64,000 nucleotides of DNA, from positions 55,430,001 to 55,494,000 of the forward strand of contig NC_086097.1 of the NCBI RefSeq assembly GCF_963921235.1, written 5' to 3'. A model generated the notes under the pieces. That model saw nothing but the letters and a program-made list of their open reading frames with translations. It was not told where the DNA came from and searched no databases. Made by a program: the position numbers and the translations under genes. Of the stretch, positions 12,995 to 59,635 are shown piece by piece; the first letter of the stretch is position 1; each line of letters opens with the position of its first letter. This stretch comes from Mobula hypostoma. Its lineage: Eukaryota.

Positions 12995-13572
12995 AAGATG
13001 TTGTTTCCAGCTTGGCACTGCTGCCTGTCACACCTCCAACAGTGCCCTTAGGTCAGCTACAGGGTCATCAGCAGCTAGGGACCACCGCTCATTGATGCTT
13101 CACTCCTCTAACCGTGGTACATCTCCTGGTAGTGGAGCAGCAGCAGGTACGTCTCCCTGCCACCCCTGCACGTTTTCAAAGGGGTTAGTCGGTCCCCCAG
13201 TTTCTGTCCTTCTGCCTTAGCCACAGCCAAAAGCTGCCCTTTTCTGCCTCTTCAGCCACTTTCTGGTGGCCCTCCTGAGCCTCACTGCCATATCCTAGAA
13301 TAACTTTGTCGTTGATGCACCGATGAAGCCGTGGTATCCTACCTGATGGTCCTCCAGCCAGTTTCCTTACTCTCAGCTGCCAGGTCTGAGTACTTCAACC
13401 TCTTCTGCTTGTGGGCAACCTCCACTCCTTCCTCCCATGGGTTAGTTAACTCGATGAGGACGACTAACTTTGTGTCCATGTGTCACAGTACTCTCTCCAG
13501 GTGAAGAGATGTGGTGGCGATTTCCGTGGGAAAATGTAGCTCTCTGCTGAGATCTGTCCTCTTGTTCCACTC
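12995..13572 (-). mobile_element. HERO-like (restriction-like endonuclease) non-LTR retrotransposon 3' fragment, subfamily C
   Basis: Minus strand FPTEIATTSL...LIELTNPWEEGVEVAHKQKRLKYSDLAAE, followed by a structured 3' UTR. Confidence 0.8.
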
Positions 13573-14254
13573 ATTTAAAAAAATTATGGGAGAATTTGGG
13601 TAAAGGCAGATTTCCGTGAGCTTCATCTTCCATTACTTAGGAGGTCCTGTTTGCTAAGCTATTCCCCAAAATATTAATCAAAACTTGTGAAAGAAAAGGG
13701 AAAAGTTGGATCACGTGAAAGTGAAAGGAAAGTGGAAATTAATAGCAATGATGATGAAACCTTAAAATATTGTTTGGGAGCAAAATGCAGCATGTAAACA
13801 ATCATCTGTGTATTGGAAAATGATGTGAGGAGGTTTCTGACAAGTTTTGAAACAAAGAATGATCCATACTGTCTCTACCTTTCCTGCCTTTCTGTGTAAC
13901 TTTGTGCTGTTTTATTCTGATATTTACCGGTTTCGATAACTTGAAAGATAAAATTTGTTTCTTCAGAGATATTGTCTGCCTTGCTAAATATTTCCAGCAT
14001 TTTCTGTTTTATCTTGGTAATTATATCCCAATATGCCAACGCGTGTAACATTGTGTTTATAACATTTTCAGTAGCTTTTACAGAGAATGTAGAGAATAAA
14101 ATGTTAACAGTCATATCATGTAGATTCTGTGTACTGTTTGGCCAAGAAAAGATGTTGGTATCTAGTTTAATAGGAATTATTGATAGTTACTAACTATCAA
14201 TAGGGACTATTGGTAGTTCCTTGAGAACTGCTAGGTGCATTCAGCATGATTTCA

Positions 14255-27114: not shown

Positions 27115-27865
27115 TTATACTGTGTATGTACATCTATTGGTGCTTCTGGACACATCTTCAGTGATGTCCCTGGAATCATTGGGTGTTTCGGGTCTTTCAA
27201 CATCATACAACGTCCTCCAGGTGACCCAGCTGGGGCTCATCAGACCCCAGCTTGTGTCCAGATGGCTCAGCTACTTATGATGGTCTTCAGGACCTGATCA
27301 TACCTCCACCTGTACTGTCCCTCACCAAGTGCCCTTGCACAGCCGCTGAGGATGTGCTCCAGGGTTCCTCGCTTGGAGCACAGTGGGCACGCAGATGACT
27401 CTGCCTTGCCCCATGTGTGCAGGTTTGATGGGCTTGGAAGCACATCGTACACTGCCTGGATGAGAAATTGGATGCGGTGCGGTTCAGCTTTCCAAAAGAT
27501 CAGCCCAGGTCACTTTCCTCTCAACCACATTCTCCCATCTTGTCCAAGCTCCCTGTTGCTTCATTCCCACTGCCTTGCAGGCTCTCATCTCCTCCACTAC
27601 TGCTTTCACCTCCTCCTGAACTAGACGACGCTTTTCCTTCCCCCTGGTGTCCATTTTGGGAGTTGGAAAGGATCCTAGCCCAGCTTGGCCTTGTGTGACC
27701 ACTCCCACCAGCCTCCTGTGACGGAGCCTCGCCTCTGCCTCCTGAACAGCTTCCTCTGCCCTCCACTTCCTGCCAGTACTTACTTGGATCCCTGCTCTAG
27801 CCACCTTCGGGTCACTTGAGTCCCTATACTGTAGCACTTCTCTGGCTCTTGTTACCTTGAATTCT
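27115..27865 (-). mobile_element. HERO-like non-LTR retrotransposon fragment, subfamily A (endonuclease deleted)
   Basis: TGRKWRAEEAV...QGAWTRWE, YDVLPSPSNLHTWG, zinc knuckle CPLC...HILSGC and YRWRYDQVL, followed directly by the 3' UTR. Confidence 0.88.
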
Positions 27866-38514: not shown

Positions 38515-40800
38515 TAGAATAGAATAGAATTTATTTAAATCTCATATGCATCCCACAACATGAGGGAGTAAAGACCTTTGCATTATGACTCTGTTGCATT
38601 GTACAGACGTGTGAATTTAAAAGTCTAATGGTTTGTAGAAAGAAGCTGTCCCATAGCCTGTCGGTCGAGGCTTTAATGCTACGGTAGAGCTTTCCAGACA
38701 GAAGCAGCTGAAACAGTTTATGGTTGGGGTGACTGGTGTTCCCAATGATCTTCCAGGCCTTTCTGCACCTGTTGCTATAAATGGCCTTAATGGAGAGGAG
38801 TTCACATCTACAGGTGCACTGGACTGCCATACCACTCTCTGCAGTGCTCAGCAATCAAAGTCGGTGTAGTTCTCATACCAAGCAGTGATACAGCCAGTCA
38901 GTATGCTCTCAGTGGTGACCCTATAGAAGTTCTTGGGGGATCGGGAGCCCATGCCAAAATTCTTCAGTTGCCTGAGGTGGAAGAGATGCTGTTGTGCTTT
39001 TTTTGCCACAAAACCAATGTACACAGTTCAGGTGAGATCATTGGTGATGTGTATGCTAACTACTCATCCTCTCAACTGCAGACCCATTGATGTTGATCAG
39101 GCCGAGCCTGTCTTTGTACCTTCTGTAATCCACAATCAGCTCTTTTGTTTTTTGGACATTGAGGGAGAGGTTGTTATTCTGGAACCACTGTGTCAGGGTG
39201 TCAACCTCTCCTCTGTAGGCTGCCTTATTACCACTAGAAATAGGGCCAATCAAAGTCGTGTTATCTGCAAATTTGATCAGCAGATTGGAGCTGTGTGTGA
39301 CAGTACAGTCGTGGGTGTAAAGAGAGTAGAGAAAGGGACTGAGAACACAACCCTGGGGGGCACCTATGTTGAGGTCAGAGGGACAGAGGTGAGGGAGCCC
39401 ATCCTTACCACCTGTCAGCAATCCGATAGGAAGTCTAGGATCCAGCTGCACAAGGTGGGATGCAGGCTGAGATCTCTGAGCTTCCTGTCAAGTCTGGAGG
39501 GAATTGTGGTGTTGAATGTTGAACTGTAGTCTTAAGAATAGCATTCTAAAGTATGCATCCCTCCTCTCTAGGTGATTGAGGGCAGTGTGTAGTGCTATGG
39601 CTATGGCGTCATCGCTGGACTGGTTCTGTCAGTACCCAGGTTGTAGAGGGTCCAGTGTGGGTGGTAGCATACTGCAGATGTAGTCTTTAAACCAGCCCCT
39701 CAAAGCATTTGCTTATAATTGAGGTGAGACCGCCAATTGTTCAGGCATGCTACCTTGGTTTTCTTATTACAGGGACAATGATGGATGATTTGAAACAGGA
39801 GAGAACTACACACTGGGAGAGGGAGAGATTAAAAATGTCTGTAAACACACCAGCCAGCTGTTCAGCAGACACTTTAAGGACGTGCCCTGGGATGCCGTCC
39901 GGCCCCGCTGCCTTGCGGCTGTTGACACGTTGGAATGTCAGCCTTGGAGATAACAAGGTGCAGCTCTGGTTGGCGGCTATCCTTGGGGGTTCAGTCCTAT
40001 TAACCTTGAATCGAGCATAAAAAAACATTTAGCTTGACCGGGAGCGAGGCAGCAATGCTGGGTGTACCGCTGCATTTCATCTTGAAATCCGCAATGGTGT
40101 GCAGTCCCTGCCATACACTGCATGTGTCATTGTTGCAGGGTTGTGACTGGATTTTGTCCCTGTGTTGCCGTTTTGTCAGCTTGATGGCTCTATGTAAATC
40201 ATTCTGGCATCTCTTGAGCTCTTGTTGGTCTCCGGCTTTATCCCTTGCACTGAAAGCAAGACGCATTGAACTTCTGGTTTGGGTAGACCCGGATCGATTT
40301 TTGGGGAGCAATGTCTTCAATGCACTTCTGAATTAAGCTTGTGACCACCTCCGTGTATTCGGAGATGCTTTCAGCTTGAAGTACCTCGCAGGTGACGCTA
40401 TCGAAGCAGTCTTGTAACATTGAGTCTGATTGGTTGGACCAGCAGTAGATAGTTTTCATTATGGCCCGTTCCTGCAACAATTTCTGCCTGTAGGTGGGCA
40501 GGAGCAAGATAGAGGAATGGTCAGCAGAGTGTGGAGAAGAGCTTTTTAGGCATTGCGGAAGGGAGAGTAGCAGTGGTTGAGTGTGCTTCCTCCCTGTGTG
40601 CTCACCTCGATGTGTTGGCAGAACTTTGGGTAAGCTCTGGTTAATGACGCTTGGTTAAAGTCTCCGGCAATGATGAAAGCAGCCTCTGGGTGTGTGATTT
40701 CATGGATATTGATGGCTTCACAAAGTTCATTTGGTATTGGCCTGTGGTGAGATGTACACAGTTGTAATAATAACAGATGTGAATTCTCTAGGCAACCAGT
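38515..40800 (-). mobile_element. Rex1/Babar-like LINE (end of endonuclease plus RT), tail (ATTCT)n
   Basis: [43 protein letters not shown]. Confidence 0.9.
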
Positions 40801-40970
40801 GTGTATAAAAGGCTACATTGCACATTTATTATACTAAATTTATTCACACATTTGTGTCAAGGCTGACGTTTGAAGTAGGTAGTACTTCACCAACATGGTG
40901 AAGTTCTTCAACCATTCTATATGTAAGGGGTGCCGGGATTTTGATTTAATCATAAGCATATAACAATAGG

Positions 40971-42170
40971 CTCTCAATGGCCACTTTATTGGAGACACCT
41001 GTACACCTGCTCGTTAATGCAAGTATCTAATCAGCCAATCATCTGGCGGCAACTCAATGCATATGTAGCGACTATGCCCTACTTGACTTCTGTTCGTCTA
41101 GGGTAAACTGGCGTTGACCCTGCCAACTCTGTAATTGTGTTGGTGTGGATACTGTGTGATTGCACCCTGGTACAAGCCCAAGACATAAAGTATCAGATGA
41201 CAATAGGCAAGTAAATGATTACACTTTATAATTATTTCTCGGTGATGGGTTGGTAGAAACAAATAAAATAAAGGTGCCAAATCAATAAATTTTATCAGTT
41301 CTGTGCACAAATAATCCGTTGGAGCTCACAAAATTCTGTATCTGTTCCTCCCCTCGATCTCCTCCGAACTCTGTCGACCTAACAGAGCGCTGGACTCACG
41401 TCCAATGTCTTCTCTTCTCCTCCATCAAAAACCCGCGCTTCTCCTCTGGTTCCCACACATACAAATAGAATAACATGACTTCCATTGGCTAGCAAATGAA
41501 TACAAGTCCCGTTATTACTAATTATAACCAAAACATGCTGCTACAGAGAACCTCTTACTCAGCAGTTAACAGTACAGAGAAGCCATTTTGTCAGCCTTAA
41601 CAATTAACATTATAATGAGTATTACTGAGAACCCTACGCATGAAAACATGCAGACATGATTAAGAGTCTCAGCTGTTGTTTAAATCAAATAGCAGAATGG
41701 GGAAGAAATGTGATCTAACTAATGTTGACTATGGTATGATTGTTGGTGCCAGGCGGGGTGGTTCAAGTATCTCAGAAACCGCTGATCCCCTGAGATTTTC
41801 ACGCACAGTAGTCTCTAGAGCTTAAAGAGAATGGTGTGAAAAACAAAAAAAAACTTCCTGTGAGTGGCAGTTCTGAGGGTGAAAATGCCTTGTTAATAAG
41901 AGAGGTGTTTTCACCCATAGAACTGCCACTTGCTGGATGTTTTTTGTTAACAAGAGAGGTACAGGAGAATGGCCAGACTGTTTTAAGCTGACAGGAAGGT
42001 GACTGTAACTCAAATAACCACACGTTACAACAGTGGTGTGCAGAAGAGCATCTCTGAATGCACATGTCAAACCTTAAAGTGGATGAGCTGCAACAGCAGA
42101 AGACCATGGATGTGCCCTCAGTGGCCACTTAATCAGGTAAAGGAGGTGCTGAATAAAGTGTCCACTTTTG
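40971..42170 (+). mobile_element. Non-autonomous Tc1-like element (transposase N-terminus only) interrupted by a solo LTR
   Basis: Ends TGGCCACTTTATT / AATAAAGTGTCCA; MGKKCDL...GMIVGARRGGSSISETAD remnant at ~41697-41830. Confidence 0.8.
41064..41638. mobile_element. Solo LTR related to 21479-22173
   Basis: TGTAG...CTACG termini; imperfect TSD CATA/CATG; shares GTTGGAGCTCA and AGAAGCCATTTT blocks; host Tc1 sequence resumes across it. Confidence 0.7.
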
Positions 42171-42171
42171 G

Positions 42172-42992
42172 TATATCCCAAGTTGGTATGATACATAACT
42201 TATCTCATGCCCCATGCTGCACAGAACATCGTATATCGTTTGTGAAAGAAGGCTCCAAGTCAAGGATGTACAGCGCAGGCCCACGATCAAGCATACTTTC
42301 TTCAGCCAATGATTGGTGTGTCAAGGCCGACCTGATGGGAAAGGCAGTTTCCCGGAGCTAATAGCTTTCACCACATTGCGTCCAGATATAATCGTATGGT
42401 CTGACACCAGTAGAGAAGTGGTTATTGGTGAACTCACAGCCCCCTGGGAAGACAACATCGATGAAGCCCATGAGCGCAAGTTAAACAAGTATGCAGAATT
42501 AAGGTCAGAGTGCAGAGACAGAGGGTGGAAGGTCTCATGCTATCCATTTGAAGTAGGCTGCCGTGGGTTTATTGTGTTCACTTTCCAGAAGTGGCTGTGT
42601 GACCTTGGCTTCACTAGAAGAGAGATCAAGTCAAGCAGCAGGGCTGTAGCTGAGGCAGCAGAGACAGGATCAGCATGGGTGTGGACTAAGTATGTCCAGA
42701 GGGGCAGATAGTCGGACAGTGTATACATATTTTGCAAACCCTTCAGTAGTTGCATAGGCACCTGAAGAGTAGACTATCTGTTGGATAGGAGCGACCAACA
42801 ACTCTGATAGAGGCAGATGCTGAGTTTTTAAGCTCACCAGTGGGAGGTGGTGCTTTAGCACCGCTGGCCCACCACCTCGAGGGAGTCTTGATCAGGAGTG
42901 GGCTGAAACTCCTGAAGACAGGTGGCAGATCAACTGATGATCCCACTGGTGATAGCACAGGACAGTTAACATCTTAGTCCATGTGTATTTTC
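42172..42992 (+). mobile_element. HERO-like non-LTR retrotransposon 3' fragment, subfamily B (endonuclease domain open to stop at 42711)
   Basis: TTLRPDIIVWS...GELTAPWEDNIDEAHERKLNKYAEL...PFEVGCRGF (PD-(D/E)xK-type restriction-like endonuclease), followed by a structured 3' UTR. Confidence 0.9.
42834..42952 (+). ncRNA. Candidate permuted, pseudoknotted hammerhead-like RNA with K-turn in a HERO-like 3' UTR
   Basis: GTC 42885-42887, GAAAC 42905-42909, CTGATGA 42934-42940. All flanking helices pair and covary with the copies at 27145-27262 and 13058-13170. Confidence 0.6.
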
Positions 42993-45102
42993 AATTCTTG
43001 GAGGAGAACATGGAGTTGGTGGTCCCACGTGCCTACAGTTCTTGTTTTTCTAGGCGAAGTGGGTTGTGAATTTGAGAGATGATGATGAAGAAGCCTTGAT
43101 GAGTTGCTGCAATGCTTTTGATATGTACTGCAGTCATAGTACATCTATGGTAAATGAAGAGATTGTTTACATGGAGAATAGGGTGGCTCAGTCCTGGATG
43201 TTGTAAAGCATCTTTGAATATAGTTAGAACGGCACTATCCCACCGTTGTCTGTAAGGAGTTTGTTCATTCTCCCCATGACTGCATGGGTTTCCTCCTGAA
43301 ACCCATTCCAAAGATGCATAGGTTAGTAGGTTAATTGGTTACCTGGGTGTAATTGGGTGGCACAGGCTTGCTGAGTTGGAAAGGCCTTAACCATGCTATA
43401 TCTCTACATTAAAAGATAAAGTAACAAGTATTTTATCGTACTCCTCCTTTGTACCTTAAAGATGGACTTGGAAGGCAGGAATGAGTGACACCCATCCCAA
43501 TTCCCACCCATAGGATGCCAAGTTCTTACATGCTTTTAAATTATCAAGCTTGATCAGGTTAATTTTTCAATAACCATACTTCCAGAATCATAATGTGATA
43601 AAGCCATTACCTCTCCTCTTGGAGATTGTCATTGTCCAGTAGGAGTGTGTTGTGACTGTTACTTTCCACTTATCAGCCCAAACCTGAATCTTATACAGGT
43701 CTTGTTTGCACTATCAGTGTTGCTCATTTTCTGATGAATTGTGAATAAAAACCAAACTCTATGCAATCATTACAGGCATTTCAATCTTGACTGACCTTAT
43801 GATGGAAGGTGGATTATAATTGAAGCAGTAGGAGATGAACCCTGCAGTAATATCTTGGGGCTGAGATGATTGGCCTCCACCAATTACATTTATCTATCTT
43901 TGGGATAGCTGTGAATTTAGGCAGCAGAAAGTTTTCCTCCTGGTAACCATTAATTACAGTTTTACAAGAATTCATTATTGCACAGTAGGTCAAATAAAGC
44001 AGTAATATCAAGGACAGTTACTCTTGCCTCCACTTGAAAATTTATCTCTTTGGTTCATGTGTGGGTAATGGCTTTATTGTTTGAATGCCTGATAGTCCTG
44101 GTGGAACCCAGACAGTGCATTTTGAATGTTATTAGTGACTATCTGGCACTTAATAACATAGCTGACAATCTATTCAATCATTTTGATAATTAAAAGCATA
44201 TTGATGGGTGTGAAATAAAATTTTTAAATACTGGAACTATGGATCAGGTTGGGCAGCACCTGTAGGTGCAAACCAGAGTGAACTTCTTAGTCAGTCAGTG
44301 ATTAAGGAAAATACGAAAACAAGTATGTTTTAAATTGCACAGAAAGTGGAACACGGAAAGAACAAGGGCAATGTCAATACTGGGAGGGACCAGAGTTTTC
44401 CAGTAAATCACCATGCCTGGACTTTTTGTCACAAATATTCCTGTTGTTCTCTCAACCTTTCACTTTTCTGCAACAAGAATTCTGTGGTGAAGCAGGGGCT
44501 AAATTACCAATCTAGTAATCCTGAGACTTGTGTGAACATTTTGAGGCCTGGACGATACTTGAAGGATATTTGAATGAGTATGTGGATAGGAAAGGTTTAG
44601 AGGGATATGGGCTACTCTCCGGTAAATGGGACTAGCTCAGTTAGGCAACTTGGTCAGCACAGGTAAGTTGGGCTAAAAGGCCTGTGACTCTATGTAACAC
44701 TACAAAGACTTAAAAGTTTAAATCTCAGTTTGGCAATTCGGGTAGTAATTTAGAATTTGGAAAAAAATGACAACTAATTTTGCTATGATGATCACAGAAA
44801 TTAGGATTATTGTAAAATTCATCTGGTTCATCGAAGTTTCTTGGAGTGAAGGGGGGAGCAATCTACCATCCTTATGTACTGTGGCCTATATTTGCCTTCA
44901 GGCCCACTGCATGTACACTCTGAAATGATCCACCCGACCATTAATATTAATACCCCATTAATACTACTTTCAAACAGAAAATTTGAAGGGTAGCAGCAGT
45001 TTAAGAAAGAAGTTCATTCATCACCATTTATTTCTTGGTGGTATGTAATGATGGGTAGTAAAATACTGACTTGCCCAATCAAGGTAAAAGATAAAATCTT
45101 GA

Positions 45103-45939
45103 TTTCAGTCAAGATGGCGCCAGTGAATGTGACCAACAGCGGTGTCCTGCTGACAGTTCATGAAACTATTTCTTTTAATTCTTTCAAATATGATTCTTCT
45201 ACAAAGCTGCATCCGAGTGGAACCTGTGATTTACATTTTGATAGTGTATTTTGGGGTTGATTGAACAATCTAGCGCTTTGCTGTCTTGGAGGGAGTTCAG
45301 TGAGGTTTGGTTCAGAGTAAGTGGCCTGGAGACAGGGTGCGAGCCCATGATTGACTCCATTGCTTCTCTCCAATTGAGGTATTGAGCAAGGTTGAAGTCG
45401 ATACAGACGAGAGCGGAGGACGGGTGGTTGTCTGGTGCCGTCTGCCTGTGATTCACTGGTCTTCCTCTCCCTTGCTGCTGTTGGAGCAAAGTGCAGAGTC
45501 TTGAGATCCACATTACCAAGAGTGATCGACGAGGCTGTGGACTCATTTTGGGGGAACCTTGAGGTTCATGCTGCATGTGTTCCTGGAATCAGGTTACCTT
45601 TTTTCTTTGTTGTTTTTGAGCGGTTTGAATGGGGCAATCAGTGCAGACTGGGGTGCATTGATGAAGAATGGCACTGCATTGGCTAGCGGGATGGTGCTGA
45701 ACTGAAGTATATACTGAACCCCAGTGGACTCCTGGTTTGATGGTTGATATTCTATGTGTTGTTTGCTCACTTTTTGCCGTTTGCACAATTTGTTATTTTT
45801 TTCACGCTATGGGTGTTTGATTTTTTTGAACGGGTTCCATGGTGTTTCTTTGTTTCGTAGCTGCTTGTAGGAGGATGAGACTCAGAATTGTATTTCTTCC
45901 CCGTATATACTTCGATAATAAATGTACTTTGGATCTTTG
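45103..45939 (+). repeat. Apparently full-length ~840-bp non-coding retroposon
   Basis: Starts TTTCAGTCAAGATGGCG, ends AATAAATGTACTTTGGATCTTTG; flanked by AATCTTGA (45095-45102 / 45940-45947). Confidence 0.65.
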
Positions 45940-46459
45940 AATCTTGAAAAATGAAGAAAACTTTGAAAATCATATTGGTTTTCTAATTTTTCTAGTTCTG
46001 GTCATTAAGCTGAAACATTAACTATTTTTCTTTCTGCCGAAGTTGTTGAGTATCAATAGCATGTTGTCTTTATATTTAAATTTTCCAATAACTGTGTTTT
46101 CCTGCTTTTCAATTACTGATGATTTTTAATTGGCCAGAATAATTTTTGCTTGCTTTTTTGAATAAGATATCCCTCAGGAGGATGAGCAAAAATATTGCTA
46201 AATTGTGGGGTAATTAAATCTAAGATTTGGTTTCAGTCACAAACACTGTTCCCTTAATTGCTGATGTTTTGACCTTTACATCTTTTTACTATTTGTATAA
46301 ACAGCTCTTTTTGGTCTTCCTGTCTCTAAATTGATAGAGGTAGCACACTATGAGTATATTTTAATTAAAACATTGAGTAGTATATTTAATGTATTTCATG
46401 TAGGAATATGACAAAGTTGCAAGCATCATTGGCTGCTCCCAAAGTTACTTTGACTCATC

Positions 46460-58069: not shown

Positions 58070-59635
58070 CGAAGGCAATAATTATACCAGTGCCTAAGAA
58101 GAATAACATGGGCTTCCTTAATTTCTATCGCCCGGTAGCACTCACATCGACAGTGATGAAATGTTTTGAGAGGTTGGTCATGACTAGACTGAACTCCTGT
58201 CTCAGCAAGGACCTGGACCCACTGCAATTTGCCTATCGCCACAAAAAGTCAATGGAAGATGCAATCTCAATGGCTCTCCACATGGCTTTAGACCACCAGG
58301 ACACCACAAACACCCATGTCAGGATGTTGTTCATCGACTATAGCTCAGCATTTAACCCCATTATTCCCACAATCCTGATTTGAGAAGTTGCAGAACATGG
58401 GCCTCTGTACCTCCCTCTGCAATTGGATCCTTAACTTCCTAACCATAAGACCACAATTTGTGCGGATTGGTGAGTCACAGAATACACGTGGACTAAGATG
58501 TTAACTGTCCTGTGCTATCACCAGTGGGATCATCAGTTGATCTGCCACCTGCCTTCAGGAGTTTCGGCCCACTTATGATCAAGACTCCCTCAAGGTGGTG
58601 ATAACATATCCTCCTTGCTGACGATCAAAACTGGCGCACCTCAGGGGTGTGTGCTTAGCCCACTGCTCGACTCTATAAACACACGACTGTGTGGCTAGGC
58701 ATAGCACAAATACCATCCATAAATTTGCTGACAATACAGCCATTGTTGGTAGAATCTCAGGTGGTGATGGGAGGGTGTACAGGAGTGAGATATGCCAACT
58801 AGTGGAGTGGTGTTGCAGCAACAACCTGGCACTCAACGTCAGTAAGACGAAAGAGCTGATTGTGGACTTCAGGAAGGGTAAGACGAAGGAACACATACCA
58901 ATCCTCATAGAGGGATCAGAAGTGGAGAGAGTGAGCGGTTTCAAGTTTCTGGGTGTCAAGATCTCTGAGGATCTGGCTTTTACCTACATATTGATGTAGA
59001 TATAAAGAAGGCAATATAGCAGCTATACTTTATTAGTAGTTTGAAGAGATTTGGTATCTCTTCGAAACCTTCTTCTATAGTTGTACCGTGGAGAGCATTC
59101 TGACAGGCTGCATCACTGTCTGGTATGGAGGGGCTACTGTACAGGACTGAAACAAGCTGCAGAAGGTTTTAAATCTAGTCAGCTCCATTTTGGGTACTAG
59201 CCTACAAAGTACTCAGAACATCTTCAGGGAGCGGTGTCTCAGAAAGGCAGCTTCCATTATTAAGGACCTCCAGCACCCAGGGCATGCCCTTTTCTCACTG
59301 TTACCATCAGGTAGGAGGTACAGAAGCCTGAAGGCAAAAACTCAGTGATTCAAGAACAGCTTCTTCCCCTCTGCCATCCGATTCCTAAATGGACATTGAA
59401 TCTTTGGACTTTACCTCGCTTTTTTAAAATATACAGTATTTCTGTTTTTGCATGTGTTTTTAATCTATTCAATATATATATACAGTAATTGATTTACTTA
59501 TTTTTAAAAAAATTTTATTTATTACTATATTTTTCTCTGCTAGTTTATGTATTGCATTGAACTGCTGCTGCTAAGTTAACAAATTTCACATCACATTCTA
59601 GTGATAATGAACCTGAATCTGATTCTGATTCTGAT
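58070..59635 (+). mobile_element. Rex1/Babar-like LINE 3' half
   Basis: [49 protein letters not shown]; tail (GATTCT)n. Confidence 0.92.
58474..58595 (-). mobile_element. 122-bp HERO-like (subfamily B) 3'-end insertion inside the Rex1 RT
   Basis: Reverse complement of ~42875-42992; TGGTGA duplicated at 58468-58473 and 58596-58601. Confidence 0.88.

What the first reader, a model, noticed from the sequence alone, without database searches (positions are those of the whole stretch)
42834..42952. Strand-permuted, pseudoknotted hammerhead-like RNA in the 3' UTR of a HERO-like retrotransposon
Seen in sequence: all hammerhead core elements are present and correctly paired. Stem III GGGAGT(42881-86)/ACTCCT(42908-13) flanks GTC(42885-87) and GAAAC(42905-09). 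Stem I TTGATC(42888-93)/GATCAA(42928-33) directly precedes CTGATGA(42934-40). Stem II GGCCCA(42866-71)/TGGGCT(42899-904) supplies the G10.1-Y11.1 pair. The linear order is GUH -> GAAA -> CUGAUGA, the reverse of the cyclic order shared by type I, II and III hammerheads (established), so stems I, II and III cross each other. The RNA ends enter through a 12-bp helix (42834-45/42941-52) plus a hairpin (42846-65) placed between A9 and G10.1, where single extra nucleotides are known in natural hammerheads. Inference: a new hammerhead topology that standard descriptor searches would miss. It could cleave/ligate the transcript or be a scaffold for 3'-end recognition by the retrotransposon protein. Insertions retain sequence on both sides of the GUH, so the reverse-transcribed template was uncut or religated. 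I know of no description of this fold but cannot exclude one.
Basis: partly seen in the sequence, partly recalled or inferred. Interest (0 to 1): 0.92.

Follow-up and report, generated by a model that had tools for sequence, protein, structure and literature searches.

The report
Rearranged hammerhead ribozyme in retrotransposon tail
The tail of a jumping gene (a HERO-like retrotransposon) carries a conserved, strongly rearranged version of the hammerhead self-cutting RNA, a strand order first described in 2023 but here in a new split form and in a new home, animal genomes.

Summary
The fold is conserved far beyond this copy. In 80 metagenome contigs encoding relatives of the element's protein (35-53% identity), 40 of 43 that cover the ORF end plus at least 300 nt downstream carry the same motif. 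The hammerhead core (CUGANGA, GAAA, U16.1-H17, G10.1-C11.1) is nearly invariant. N7 is free and position 17 is G in 1 of 60 rows. All six helices covary, including the two pseudoknotted stems I and II.

The claim of a new topology is only partly right. The order site, GAAA, CUGANGA is the "type-SGC" non-circular permutation of Eckert et al. 2023, which cleaves in vitro. Three things differ here. Block C is split: the stem II 5' strand lies upstream, and the RNA enters and leaves through a P1/P2 pair inserted between A9 and G10.1, a zero-linker four-way junction. A kink-turn-like loop joins stem III to the tethering helix Px. The setting is the 3' UTR of an autonomous RLE-type retrotransposon with over 1,100 copies in this 3.5-Gb genome.

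Self-cleavage after C42887 is likely but unshown. Genomic copies show no pile-up of ends at the site. The biological role is inferred.

The parts
42194..43000 (+). 5'-truncated copy (about 807 nt) of the retrotransposon: end of the ORF, 3' UTR and tail
   Evidence: blastn to longer sister copies L031 and L115, 93-95% identity. The 3' boundary at 42991-43000 comes from the alignment of 30 sister loci.
42313..42711 (+). Open remnant of the C-terminal restriction-like endonuclease domain (RPD...E...K)
   Evidence: the ORF listing; tblastn to P0001 residues 1046-1157. Pfam gave no hit for this fragment.
42834..42845 (+). P1 5' strand (closing helix; the RNA enters here)
   Evidence: Pairs with 42941-52. 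11 of 11 pairs show changes on both sides across 62 rows, 82% paired.
42846..42865 (+). P2 hairpin, directly between P1 and G10.1
   Evidence: 8 of 8 pairs covary, 84% paired.
42866..42870 (+). Stem II 5' strand (G10.1 = 42866), detached from CUGAUGA
   Evidence: Pairs with 42900-04. 4 of 5 pairs covary. The 10.1-11.1 pair is GC 47, GU 4, other 8.
42872..42877 (+). Px 5' strand (helix tying the distal ends of stems I and II)
   Evidence: Pairs with 42920-25. 6 of 6 pairs covary, 93.9% paired.
42878..42880 (+). CGA: short strand of the kink-turn-like internal loop between Px and stem III
   Evidence: The NGA / NNNGAN pattern holds in 27 of 51 aligned rows. The k-turn consensus is recalled, not tested.
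42881..42886 (+). Stem III 3' strand ending in U16.1 (42886)
   Evidence: Pairs with 42908-13. 5 of 6 pairs covary. U16.1-A15.1 is UA in 57 rows and UG in 1.
42887..42888 (+). Predicted scissile bond: C17 (42887) / U1.1 (42888)
   Evidence: By analogy with hammerheads. Position 17 is C 22, A 22, U 15, G 1 in 60 rows. Cleavage itself was not tested.
42888..42893 (+). Stem I 3' strand
   Evidence: Pairs with 42928-33. 6 of 6 pairs covary, 86.2% paired, and these pairs were not in the search model.
42894..42898 (+). Linker from the distal end of stem I to the distal end of stem II
   Evidence: 1-8 nt in all but one weakly parsed instance (L094, 25 nt), often A-rich. The same feature is described for type-SGC.
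42900..42908 (+). Stem II 3' strand (42900-04) followed by G12 A13 A14 A15.1 (42905-08)
   Evidence: GAAA is invariant in the 35-sequence MAFFT alignment. G12 58 of 60, A13 60 of 60, A14 59 of 60, A15.1 59 of 60.
42908..42913 (+). Stem III 5' strand
42914..42919 (+). GAAGAC: long strand of the kink-turn-like loop (3-nt bulge, GA, N)
42920..42925 (+). Px 3' strand
42928..42933 (+). Stem I 5' strand
42934..42940 (+). C3 U4 G5 A6 U7 G8 A9
   Evidence: C3 56 of 60, U4 60 of 60, G5 59 of 60, A6 58 of 59, G8 57 of 60, A9 60 of 60. N7 is U 31, A 17, C 8, G 3.
42941..42952 (+). P1 3' strand, starting directly after A9 (the RNA leaves here)
42953..43000 (+). Tail to the 3' end of the element. The last bases vary between copies (CAATTC / TAACTC / GTAACTC, then T).
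   Evidence: Alignment of 30 sister loci with flanks.
27137..27272 (-). Same ribozyme fold from a second, divergent family in the window
   Evidence: cmsearch 85.4 bits, E 7.6e-22. RT/RLE fragments lie next to it on the minus strand.
58472..58628 (-). Short 5'-truncated copy of the same family as the finding. Homology to sister copies spans 58472-58600 and starts inside the ribozyme at Px.
   Evidence: cmsearch 58.8 bits at 58512-58628; blastn.
13050..13179 (-). Decayed copy of the fold from a third family
   Evidence: cmsearch 25.1 bits, E 1.2e-4. Core changes at A15.1 and A6. RLE fragments at 13197-13575 on the minus strand.

Best explanation
Window 42834-42952 is a fossil copy of a true hammerhead ribozyme domain. 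It sits in the 3' UTR of an autonomous non-LTR retrotransposon of the restriction-like-endonuclease group (HERO-like).

The fold (shown). Its three conserved strands come in the order cleavage site, GAAA, CUGANGA. This is the non-circularly permuted 'type-SGC' order, so stems I and II are pseudoknots over the stem III hairpin. It differs from published type-SGC RNAs in that the strand carrying CUGANGA is split. After A9 the chain leaves through helix P1. It re-enters through P1 and hairpin P2 and runs straight into G10.1. P1, P2, stem II and the core helix therefore meet in a four-way junction without linkers. A further helix, Px, follows the stem II 5' strand and precedes the stem I 5' strand. 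It ties stems I and II side by side and is joined to stem III by a kink-turn-like loop.

Strength of each step:
- The fold, its conservation and its link to this retrotransposon group are shown by comparative data.
- Inferred, about 0.65: the intact RNA cleaves itself between C42887 and U42888. About 29 intermolecular pairs (P1, II, Px, III) hold the two products together, so it can probably re-ligate.
- Inferred, about 0.4: the folded domain is the 3' handle that the element's own reverse transcriptase recognises for target-primed reverse transcription. On this reading self-cleavage is a switch that disables or processes RNAs not held in the RNP. That would explain why all genomic copies derive from uncut or religated templates.

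The window copy itself is a dead, 5'-truncated insertion with a G-U at 10.1/11.1.
For: Distribution:
- 40 of 43 related loci that hold the ORF end and at least 300 nt after it carry the motif, 0-1564 nt past the end of the ORF match.
- All 60 cmsearch hits in metagenome loci lie on the ORF strand.

Core:
- In a structure-blind MAFFT alignment of 35 motifs (mean column identity 45%), the invariant columns are exactly GAAA and CTGA.GA.
- Over 62 distinct rows the core positions are 93-100% conserved. N7 is free. Position 17 is G once in 60.

Helices:
- 85.9% of 2,358 cells are paired, against 55.4% in shuffles (0 of 500 reach it) and 38.6-43.1% when slid.
- 41 of 43 pairs show changes on both sides.
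- Stems I and II were not in the covariance model, yet are 86% and 87% paired.
- 10.1-11.1 never changes on both sides (GC 47, GU 4), as in hammerheads.

Split block C: pairing of the bases after A9 with the stem II 3' strand equals chance, and the 10.1/11.1 equivalent is paired in 1 of 58 rows.

Precedent: type-SGC RNAs of the same strand order cleave at the predicted site in vitro, and each of their four helices is needed (PMC10085705, sections read). [quoted passage not shown]

Templates intact: 1,153 genomic pattern matches span the site.

One junction (L090:1241-1245) ends an upstream copy at GUC(C) and continues with a 5'-truncated copy. This is what a template jump onto a cleaved RNA would give.
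Against: - No cleavage was observed. Only assembled contigs of public runs were available, and these cannot show RNA ends.
- In this genome, ends at the predicted site are not enriched. One copy starts at nucleotide 1.1 (L112). None truly ends at C17 (L113 is a 2-nt deletion). This is against 1,153 matches across the site.
- None of 7 full-length or near-full-length copies starts at nucleotide 1.1.
- Conservation of the core shows selection for the native fold. It cannot by itself separate catalysis from protein recognition.
- An insertion of two helices between A9 and G10.1 is untested in any hammerhead. It could slow or prevent catalysis.
- In the analogous Penelope-like element, hammerhead cleavage was not needed for reverse transcription in vitro, and no reads ended at the site (PMC11167929, passages).
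- 12 complete rows of the 62 carry a core change, probably decayed copies. In 4 further rows the core is cut off or missing.
Confidence: 0.7

Rival explanations
1. 5'-end processing. The ribozyme works for the element downstream of it. In head-to-tail tandems or read-through transcripts it cuts the upstream copy's 3' UTR and so releases the 5' end of the next unit. It may also help translate the uncapped RNA. The analogues are the HDV-like ribozyme of R2 and the hammerhead in the pseudo-LTR of Penelope-like elements.
For: - A complete ribozyme lies 230-1130 nt upstream of the ORF start in 10 of 15 full-length metagenome copies with enough upstream sequence.
- In 4 of 7 full-length or near-full-length copies of this genome, a complete ribozyme lies about 115-145 nt before the estimated ORF start.
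- Penelope-like elements have the same tandem layout (PMC11167929).
Against: - The upstream partial copies in this genome are 182-289 nt long and start at varying points 5' of the ribozyme, not at nucleotide 1.1.
- Genome-wide, only 1 copy starts at 1.1 among about 1,153.
- Three full-length copies lack any upstream partial copy. Their 5' ends fall within tens of bases of the tail/5'-end junction seen in the tandem copies, which suggests a fixed transcript start.
Confidence: 0.2
2. Pure scaffold. The RNA keeps a hammerhead-like fold only as a shape recognised by the reverse transcriptase. Cleavage is absent or negligible in the cell because the P1/P2 insertion or bound protein keeps the core inactive.
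For: - It lies in the 3' UTR, close behind the ORF, in nearly all families examined.
- Both halves are kept in all copies.
- No ends pile up at the site.
- R2 proteins bind a pseudoknotted 3' UTR RNA (PMC12222951, abstract in the listing).
Against: - The pattern of variation is that of active hammerheads down to N7 and H17.
- RNAs with the same strand order cleave (PMC10085705).
- An RNA that adopts the native core with a 2'-OH at position 17 is expected to cut. This rests on established hammerhead chemistry and is recalled.
Confidence: 0.25
3. Unit-length circular RNA. Tandem arrays are transcribed, cut at each ribozyme and ligated into circles that serve as templates, as in retrozymes.
For: - Tandem copies occur.
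- P1 and the other helices would hold the two ends of a monomer together.
- Retrozymes do this (PMC7229834, abstract in the listing).
Against: - Most copies in this genome are single, 5'-truncated, and end at one defined tail. This points to a linear template.
- No joined form was seen in the laid contigs, which is weak evidence.
Confidence: 0.05
4. Chance resemblance in a structured UTR.
For: A 64-kb window read by eye with a flexible topology offers many chances. One low-scoring descriptor hit with G at position 17 does occur by chance at about 13966 on the minus strand.
Against: Descriptor controls; core invariance and covariation across proteins only 35-53% identical.
Confidence: 0.01

Closest known systems
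Type-SGC non-circularly permuted hammerhead ribozymes (HRIMA-1 motif and variants; Eckert, Friedrich, Weinberg and Weinberg, NAR 2023, PMC10085705)
   Same: - Order site block, GAAA block, CUGAnGA.
- Stems I-III cross as pseudoknots.
- A short linker runs from the stem I 3' strand to the stem II 3' strand.
- An extra helix joins the other sides of stems I and II (Px here).
- The same conserved core.
   Different: - There, CUGAnGA is followed directly by the stem II 5' strand, and the authors assume blocks cannot be interrupted. Here the stem II 5' strand lies 5' of the site block, and P1 plus P2 are inserted between A9 and G10.1. The RNA is in effect a circular permutation of type-SGC opened inside block C.
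- A kink-turn-like loop sits between Px and stem III.
- They were found in environmental contigs that also hold hairpin ribozymes (metatranscriptome, metagenome and RefSeq searches), which the authors ascribe to circular-RNA agents. No retrotransposon link appears in the text or in the one supplementary file held. Here the setting is an animal retrotransposon.
- No Rfam 15 family matched.
Hammerheads of Penelope-like elements (in the pseudo-LTR) and of retrozymes
   Same: A hammerhead carried by a retroelement that is often found in tandem or partial tandem. The function is still unclear, and cleavage was not needed for TPRT in vitro (PMC11167929, passages).
   Different: Those are classical type I (or minimal, dimeric) hammerheads. 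The elements have a GIY-YIG endonuclease or none. The motif lies at the ORF start rather than just behind the ORF end.
R2 retrotransposon RNA elements: 5' HDV-like ribozyme and protein-binding 3' UTR
   Same: Same superclade of RLE-type non-LTR elements. A ribozyme serves the element's RNA and a structured 3' UTR serves RT recognition (PMC12222951, abstract in a listing; the R2 ribozyme is recalled).
   Different: R2's ribozyme is HDV-like and sits at the 5' end. Its 3' UTR is not a ribozyme. Here a hammerhead sits in the 3' UTR.
Classical type I, II and III hammerheads (Rfam Hammerhead_1, _II, _3, HH9, HH10)
   Same: Core nucleotides, the A15.1-U16.1 and G10.1-C11.1 pairs, the H17 rule, three stems.
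   Different: No three-way junction. None of the stems is closed by its own loop. Not detected by any Rfam model at E <= 10 in the window or E <= 1 in ten related loci.

Membership tests
Hammerhead ribozyme (catalytic core) | C3 U4 G5 A6 N7 G8 A9 conserved, N7 free | tested here: met
   56-60 of 59-60 rows at each fixed position. N7 is U 31, A 17, C 8, G 3.
Hammerhead ribozyme (catalytic core) | G12 A13 A14, and an invariant A15.1-U16.1 pair | tested here: met
   58, 60 and 59 of 60. The pair is UA in 57 rows and UG in 1.
Hammerhead ribozyme (catalytic core) | Position 17 is any base but G | tested here: met
   C 22, A 22, U 15, G 1. 0 of 39 descriptor hits have G, and the descriptor did not ask for this.
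Hammerhead ribozyme (catalytic core) | Stems I, II and III flank the core, with G10.1-C11.1 | tested here: met
   Covariation in 6 of 6, 4 of 5 and 5 of 6 pairs. 10.1-11.1 is GC 47, GU 4, other 8.
Hammerhead ribozyme (catalytic core) | Site-specific self-cleavage giving 2',3'-cyclic phosphate and 5'-OH | not testable with these tools
   Public runs were available only as contigs.
Classical hammerhead types I-III | Unknotted three-way junction; strand order CUGANGA, GAAA, site (cyclic) | tested here: not met
   The order is site, GAAA, CUGANGA in every instance. No Rfam hit.
Type-SGC permuted hammerhead (Eckert et al. 2023) | Block order S, G, C | tested here: met
Type-SGC permuted hammerhead (Eckert et al. 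2023) | Block C uninterrupted: stem II 5' strand directly after CUGAnGA | tested here: not met
   40.2% paired against 40.0% shuffled. The first pair forms in 1 of 58 rows. The upstream partner is 86.6% paired.
Type-SGC permuted hammerhead (Eckert et al. 2023) | Helix joining the far sides of stems I and II; short I-to-II linker | tested here: met
   Px is 93.9% paired and 6 of 6 pairs covary. The linker is 1-8 nt in all but one weakly parsed instance.
Hero clade of non-LTR retrotransposons | Single ORF with reverse transcriptase, CCHC motif and C-terminal restriction-like endonuclease | tested here: met
   618-aa open frame in L031 with CX2C...H...C and RPD..E..K. Relatives of 1,083-1,422 aa carry PF00078.
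Hero clade of non-LTR retrotransposons | RT phylogeny groups it with reference Hero elements rather than R2, R4, NeSL or CRE | not tested
   No reference Hero sequence was at hand. Relatives occur in fishes, lamprey, lancelets and scallops, and include a Tetraodon 'polyprotein'. This fits the spread reported for Hero (PMC9004415, passages).
Kink-turn | Helix, 3-nt bulge, tandem G-A / A-G pairs, second helix | tested here: inconclusive
   The sequence signature is present in 27 of 51 rows by strict columns. Some other rows appear to fit after a one-column shift (by eye). The consensus is recalled, and there are no structural data.

The most novel reading that the evidence does not exclude
HERO-like retrotransposons of many animals use an active hammerhead of a hitherto undescribed architecture. 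It has a permuted S-G-C strand order and a core embedded in a four-way junction, braced by a kink-turn strut. The RNA serves both as the reverse transcriptase's 3' recognition domain and as a cleavage/ligation switch. In many lineages a palindromic P2 loop (UGAUCA, UGGCCA, UGUACA) pairs two element RNAs. That would favour the template jumps that create the frequent head-to-tail partial tandems.
Probability: 0.2. Interest if true: 0.9.

Novelty: new variant of a known kind. Interest (0 to 1): 0.75.

Why it matters
- Non-circular permutations of a ribozyme were reported only in 2023, from environmental contigs of unknown hosts, mostly metatranscriptomes. Here the same strand order appears in a defined biological system: an autonomous retrotransposon family with over a thousand copies in one animal genome and relatives in fishes, lamprey, lancelets and molluscs.
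- It shows that a conserved hammerhead block can be interrupted by helices. Current descriptor searches rule this out, so further hidden hammerheads may exist.
- It adds the Hero-like group to the retroelements that carry ribozymes (R2, RTE and L1Tc with HDV-like; Penelope and retrozymes with hammerheads). That makes the open question of what such ribozymes do testable in a second, independent system.
- The compact, multiply braced fold may also be useful for RNA engineering.

Tried and rejected
- Rfam 15 scans found no hammerhead or other explaining family: window 40000-46000 at E <= 10, and ten related loci at E <= 1.
- Pfam on the two ORF remnants of the window gave nothing. The protein was identified through a longer sister copy instead.
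- Public runs: all 24 runs were held as Logan contigs. Laying four of them showed no places where molecules begin or end. A rise in summed contig depth from about 42908 in X1 and X2 cannot be interpreted. By the tool's own warning contig depth cannot rank parts of a gene, and the variable bases at 42895-42904 may break contigs (my reading). Genome copy number does not jump there: 1,429 against 1,153 pattern matches.
- Pile-up of insertion ends at the cleavage site in the own genome: not found.
- tRNA-like look of the spacer between ORF and ribozyme in L059, L089, L094, L100 and L102: ARAGORN found none in the 12 loci scanned, and Rfam found none in the 10 scanned. Idea dropped.
- The search of earlier findings gave nothing, by words or by sequence.
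- Contig ends: L080 stops exactly at C17 and L044 starts at nucleotide 1.2, but L039, L072 and L082 end elsewhere inside the motif. Too few to count.
- A descriptor hit on the window's minus strand near 13966 has G at position 17 and 4-bp stems. Taken as chance.
- Literature: six full-text searches found no paper linking a permuted hammerhead to Hero or R2-like elements. Subscription journals and bioRxiv supplements are outside the library.
Full report
**1. What is in the window.**

- P1: 42834-45 / 42941-52, 12 perfect pairs.
- Hairpin P2: 42846-53 / 42858-65.
- Stem II: 42866-70(71) / 42900(899)-04.
- Stem III: 42881-86 / 42908-13, ending in U16.1.
- C17 at 42887.
- Stem I: 42888-93 / 42928-33.
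- GAAA at 42905-08 and CUGAUGA at 42934-40.

The minimum-free-energy fold of 42825-42960 contains the four nested helices P1, P2, Px and III. It is far more stable than shuffles (-61.1 against -42.96 +/- 4.14 kcal/mol, z -4.38, 0 of 200 shuffles as stable). Stems I and II cross stem III, so a nested fold cannot show them. Rfam 15 finds nothing here even at E <= 10.

**2. The host element.**

The motif lies 122 nt behind the end of an open frame (42313-42711) that carries the RPD...E...K signature of a restriction-like endonuclease. The window copy is a 5'-truncated insertion spanning 42194-43000.

The window's genome has 3.48 Gb in 200 contigs. It holds at least 1,689 candidate matches to this stretch, and the 40 scored are 94-96% identical. 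A 35-nt pattern across the predicted cleavage site matches 1,153 times with at most one mismatch.

A longer sister copy (L031) has a 618-aa open frame with the end of a reverse transcriptase, a CCHC motif and the endonuclease. A search of longer proteins gave 154 relatives with E <= 0.001, of which the best 120 are listed. These are 38-49% identical and 1,083-1,422 aa long. All carry Pfam PF00078. They come from fishes, a lamprey, lancelets and scallops, and include a Tetraodon 'polyprotein'.

This is an RLE-type, R2-superclade non-LTR retrotransposon. The spread fits what is written about the Hero clade: sea urchin, lancelet and fish, with a restriction-like endonuclease (PMC9004415, passages). 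I did not place it on a tree, so 'HERO-like' remains plausible but untested.

**3. Conservation far beyond this family.**

An alignment of 14 of these proteins was used to fetch DNA from metagenome contigs. 231 stretches encode relatives and 80 loci were kept, at 34-79% identity in the best segment (35-53% for nearly all). The contigs presumably come from eukaryotic DNA in the samples.

A CTGANGA lies shortly behind the ORF in most of them. A simple descriptor asked for the permuted order, stems I >= 3, II >= 4 and III >= 4 bp, GAAA and a U before the site. It found 38 instances on the ORF strand of 295,667 nt. It found none on the other strand, one on the reversed sequence, and two in total in 20 block-shuffled replicates.

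A covariance model was built only from the nested helices P1, P2, Px and III. It found 64 matches at E < 0.01 in the window plus the 80 loci. All 60 matches in metagenome loci lie on the ORF strand. The window holds three more copies on its minus strand: 27137-27272, 58512-58628 and 13050-13179. By sequence and neighbouring protein fragments, the four window copies belong to three families.

43 loci reach the ORF end and hold at least 300 nt after it. Of these, 40 have the motif, starting 0-1564 nt after the end of the ORF match. In half of them this distance is 41 nt or less, so in many families P1 abuts or overlaps the end of the ORF. L033 and L096 lack a hit. The third, L056, is a twin of L057, whose motif lies 1,564 nt after the ORF, beyond the end of L056's contig.

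**4. It is a hammerhead core.**

In a structure-blind MAFFT alignment of 35 motifs with a mean column identity of 45%, the invariant columns are exactly G12 A13 A14 A15.1 and C3 U4 G5 A6. G8 A9.

Over the 62 distinct rows of the model-based alignment:

| Position | Count |
|---|---|
| C3 | 56 of 60 |
| U4 | 60 of 60 |
| G5 | 59 of 60 |
| A6 | 58 of 59 |
| N7 | U 31, A 17, C 8, G 3 |
| G8 | 57 of 60 |
| A9 | 60 of 60 |
| G12 | 58 of 60 |
| A13 | 60 of 60 |
| A14 | 59 of 60 |
| A15.1 | 59 of 60 |
| U16.1 | 59 of 60 |
| Position 17 | C 22, A 22, U 15, G 1 |

The sixteen deviating rows include truncated hits and copies with one or two core changes. I take the latter for decayed insertions. This pattern, down to the free N7 and the ban on G17, is the textbook signature of hammerheads (the textbook rule is recalled).

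In the window's own family, 22 of 30 copies have C at 11.1. The window has T at a CpG, so its G-U wobble is decay.

**5. All helices covary.**

- Of 2,358 cells, 85.9% form standard pairs. Shuffles give 55.4% (0 of 500 reach the observed value). Sliding the partners by 1-3 columns gives 38.6-43.1%.
- 41 of 43 pairs show changes on both sides.

| Helix | Pairs with changes on both sides | Cells paired |
|---|---|---|
| P1 | 11 of 11 | 82% |
| P2 | 8 of 8 | 84% |
| Stem II | 4 of 5 | 86.6% |
| Px | 6 of 6 | 93.9% |
| Stem III | 5 of 6 | 92.5% |
| Stem I | 6 of 6 | 86.2% |

Stems I and II were not part of the model that made the alignment, so their counts do not lean on it. The two pairs that never covary are the ones a hammerhead fixes: 10.1-11.1 (GC 47, GU 4, other 8) and 16.1-15.1 (UA 57, UG 1).

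The MAFFT alignment gives the same picture, 80.3% against 55.7%. A caveat applies: its 35 sequences were picked by my descriptor, which demanded short stems I-III.

**6. Comparison with what is known.**

The order site, GAAA, CUGANGA is not new. Eckert, Friedrich, Weinberg and Weinberg (NAR 2023, PMC10085705; I read the outline, sections 13, 14, 15 and 18, term passages, and term searches in the one supplementary file held) divide the hammerhead into blocks S, G and C. They report natural 'type-SGC' ribozymes: 583 sequences, with cleavage in vitro at the predicted site, mutation of each of the four helices abolishing cleavage, and compensatory changes restoring it. They also report weaker type-CSG and type-GCS cases. 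Their type-SGC has a short linker from stem I to stem II and a helix joining the other sides of stems I and II.

Both features are present here. The I-to-II linker is 1-8 nt in all but one weakly parsed instance. Px follows the stem II 5' strand and precedes the stem I 5' strand.

The authors state the assumption that blocks cannot be interrupted. Here block C is interrupted. The bases directly after A9 do not pair with the stem II 3' strand (40.2% paired, shuffles 40.0%, first pair 1 of 58), while the upstream partner does. After A9 the chain goes straight into the P1 3' strand. P1 5' runs straight into P2, and P2 runs straight into G10.1. The alignment has no insert columns at these three joints.

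So P1, P2, stem II and the G-A helix of the core meet in a four-way junction without linkers. If it stacks like other such junctions (inference), stem II can stay stacked on the core while P1 stacks on P2. This would leave the core geometry intact.

In effect the RNA is a circular permutation of type-SGC. The old 3' end (after Px) is joined to the old 5' end (before stem III) by 2-3 nt. New ends are opened inside block C.

The paper's text has no link to retrotransposons. 'Retrotranspos' occurs only in the reference list, and the same holds for the supplement. Six full-text searches found no paper that links permuted hammerheads with Hero or R2-like elements. The library lacks most subscription journals.

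**7. A kink-turn-like strut.**

Between Px and stem III the short strand reads NGA. The long strand reads NNN-GA-N, that is a three-base bulge and then GA on both strands. In the window these are CGA 42878-80 and GAAGAC 42914-19. By strict columns, 27 of 51 rows show this. By eye, some other rows fit after a one-column shift, and a few lineages have other loops.

This is the sequence signature of a kink-turn (consensus recalled). A sharp kink there would let Px run back along the stem III/II stack to reach the far ends of stems I and II, which its connectivity demands. This is an inference from sequence only.

**8. Does it cut, and what for?**

No tool here can show cleavage. All 24 public runs found were held as assembled contigs. 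Laying four of them showed no molecule ends and nothing that may be interpreted.

Genomic copies argue that the templates of retrotransposition were intact across the site. There are 1,153 matches across it. Only one copy starts exactly at nucleotide 1.1 (L112, a 111-nt insertion). None truly ends at C17, since L113 is a 2-nt deletion.

One junction in a metagenome contig (L090) does end an upstream copy at GUC(C) and continues with a copy truncated inside the RT. A jump of the reverse transcriptase onto a cleaved RNA would give this. It is a single case.

After a cut, about 29 pairs (P1, II, Px, III) would still hold the two products together, so re-ligation or continued association is plausible (inference).

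Full-length copies are often preceded by a partial copy:
- In 10 of 15 metagenome cases, a ribozyme lies 230-1130 nt before the ORF start.
- In 4 of 7 full-length or near-full-length copies of this genome (L114, L115, L118, L124), partial copies of 182-289 nt directly abut the 5' end of the next copy.

Their variable starts fit either template jumping or repeated insertion at the tail. They do not fit 5' ends made by the ribozyme.

The nearest analogue is the hammerhead of Penelope-like elements. It also lies in tandem units. In one study its cleavage was not needed for reverse transcription in vitro, occurred only with protein present, and left no read ends in RNA-seq (PMC11167929, passages).

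My best reading is therefore:
- The domain is a native hammerhead that very probably can cut (about 0.65).
- Its selected role is tied to the 3' end of the RNA, most likely as the fold the element's own reverse transcriptase grips, with cleavage acting as a switch on RNAs outside the RNP (about 0.4).
- Processing of tandem or read-through transcripts for the downstream unit is the main rival (0.2). A purely structural role is next (0.25).

**9. Verdict.**

The topology class is already known, so this is not a categorically new fold. It is a new variant of it: a split C block in a four-way junction, with a kink-turn-like brace. It is in a new and tractable biological setting, the 3' UTR of an autonomous animal retrotransposon.

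Noticed in passing
Related loci, apical loop of P2 (e.g. L038:3430-3565, L041:2332-2464, L046:3025-3158); not in the window copy (42854-57): The P2 loop holds a 6-nt self-complementary word in 31 of 56 rows, against a mean of 9.4 and a maximum of 18 in 1,000 shuffles. It is mostly UGAUCA, also UGGCCA and UGUACA: the middle two bases change while the palindrome is kept. This looks like a kissing-loop dimerisation site.
   Followed up: partly
Own-genome loci L114, L115, L118, L124; metagenome loci L034, L039, L040, L044, L049, L056, L082, L087, L109, L110: Full-length copies are often preceded head-to-tail by a partial or whole copy. A complete ribozyme then also lies upstream of the ORF. In L110 two different subfamily copies stand in tandem. 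This may come from template jumping or from insertion into the tail of older copies.
   Followed up: partly
L090:1180-1250: An upstream copy stops at the predicted cleavage site (GUC, plus one C). It is joined to a copy that starts inside the RT domain.
   Followed up: partly
L080:1214-1279 and L044:1-61: Contig L080 ends exactly at C17 of the motif. Contig L044 begins at nucleotide 1.2. Other contigs end elsewhere in the motif.
   Followed up: no
Downstream of the ribozyme in L041, L042, L046, L061, L067, L069, L110 (e.g. L046:3200-3330): A conserved run of short hairpin-like repeats (CCAGGAAAGACTGG, CCTGGAGAGACAGG and the like) follows the ribozyme in several divergent families. It may be the leader of the next unit.
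   Followed up: no
Between ORF end and ribozyme in L059, L089, L094, L100, L102: Stretches that look like tRNA box A and box B (…AGTGGTTAGAG… …GGTTCAAATCC…). ARAGORN and Rfam find no tRNA.
   Followed up: yes
window 42844-42852 with 42870-42878: In this family GAGGTGGTG can pair with CACCACCTC. This competes with P2 and Px and is a possible inactive conformer. It was seen in the sequence only and is not evident in other families.
   Followed up: no
window 42908-42990 in runs X1 and X2: Summed contig depth is 20-30 times higher over the last ~85 nt of the element than upstream in X2, and a few-fold higher in X1. The genome's copy number does not jump there. Not interpretable from contigs.
   Followed up: partly
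window 41855-41937 (+): Long hairpin with a weak match to the mir-550 precursor model (39.4 bits; gathering score 81; E 5.9e-6). It lies just upstream of the element and was not examined.
   Followed up: no
window 42991-43000 and sister loci: The last bases of the element vary between copies...GTGTATTTT followed by CAATTC, CAATTCAATTC, TAACTC or GTAACTC, then T.
   Followed up: no
window 39056-40812 (-): Open-frame fragments of another reverse transcriptase (…YTHDCT…, …ISLLNVE…-like) on the minus strand. This is a different LINE, unrelated to the finding.
   Followed up: no
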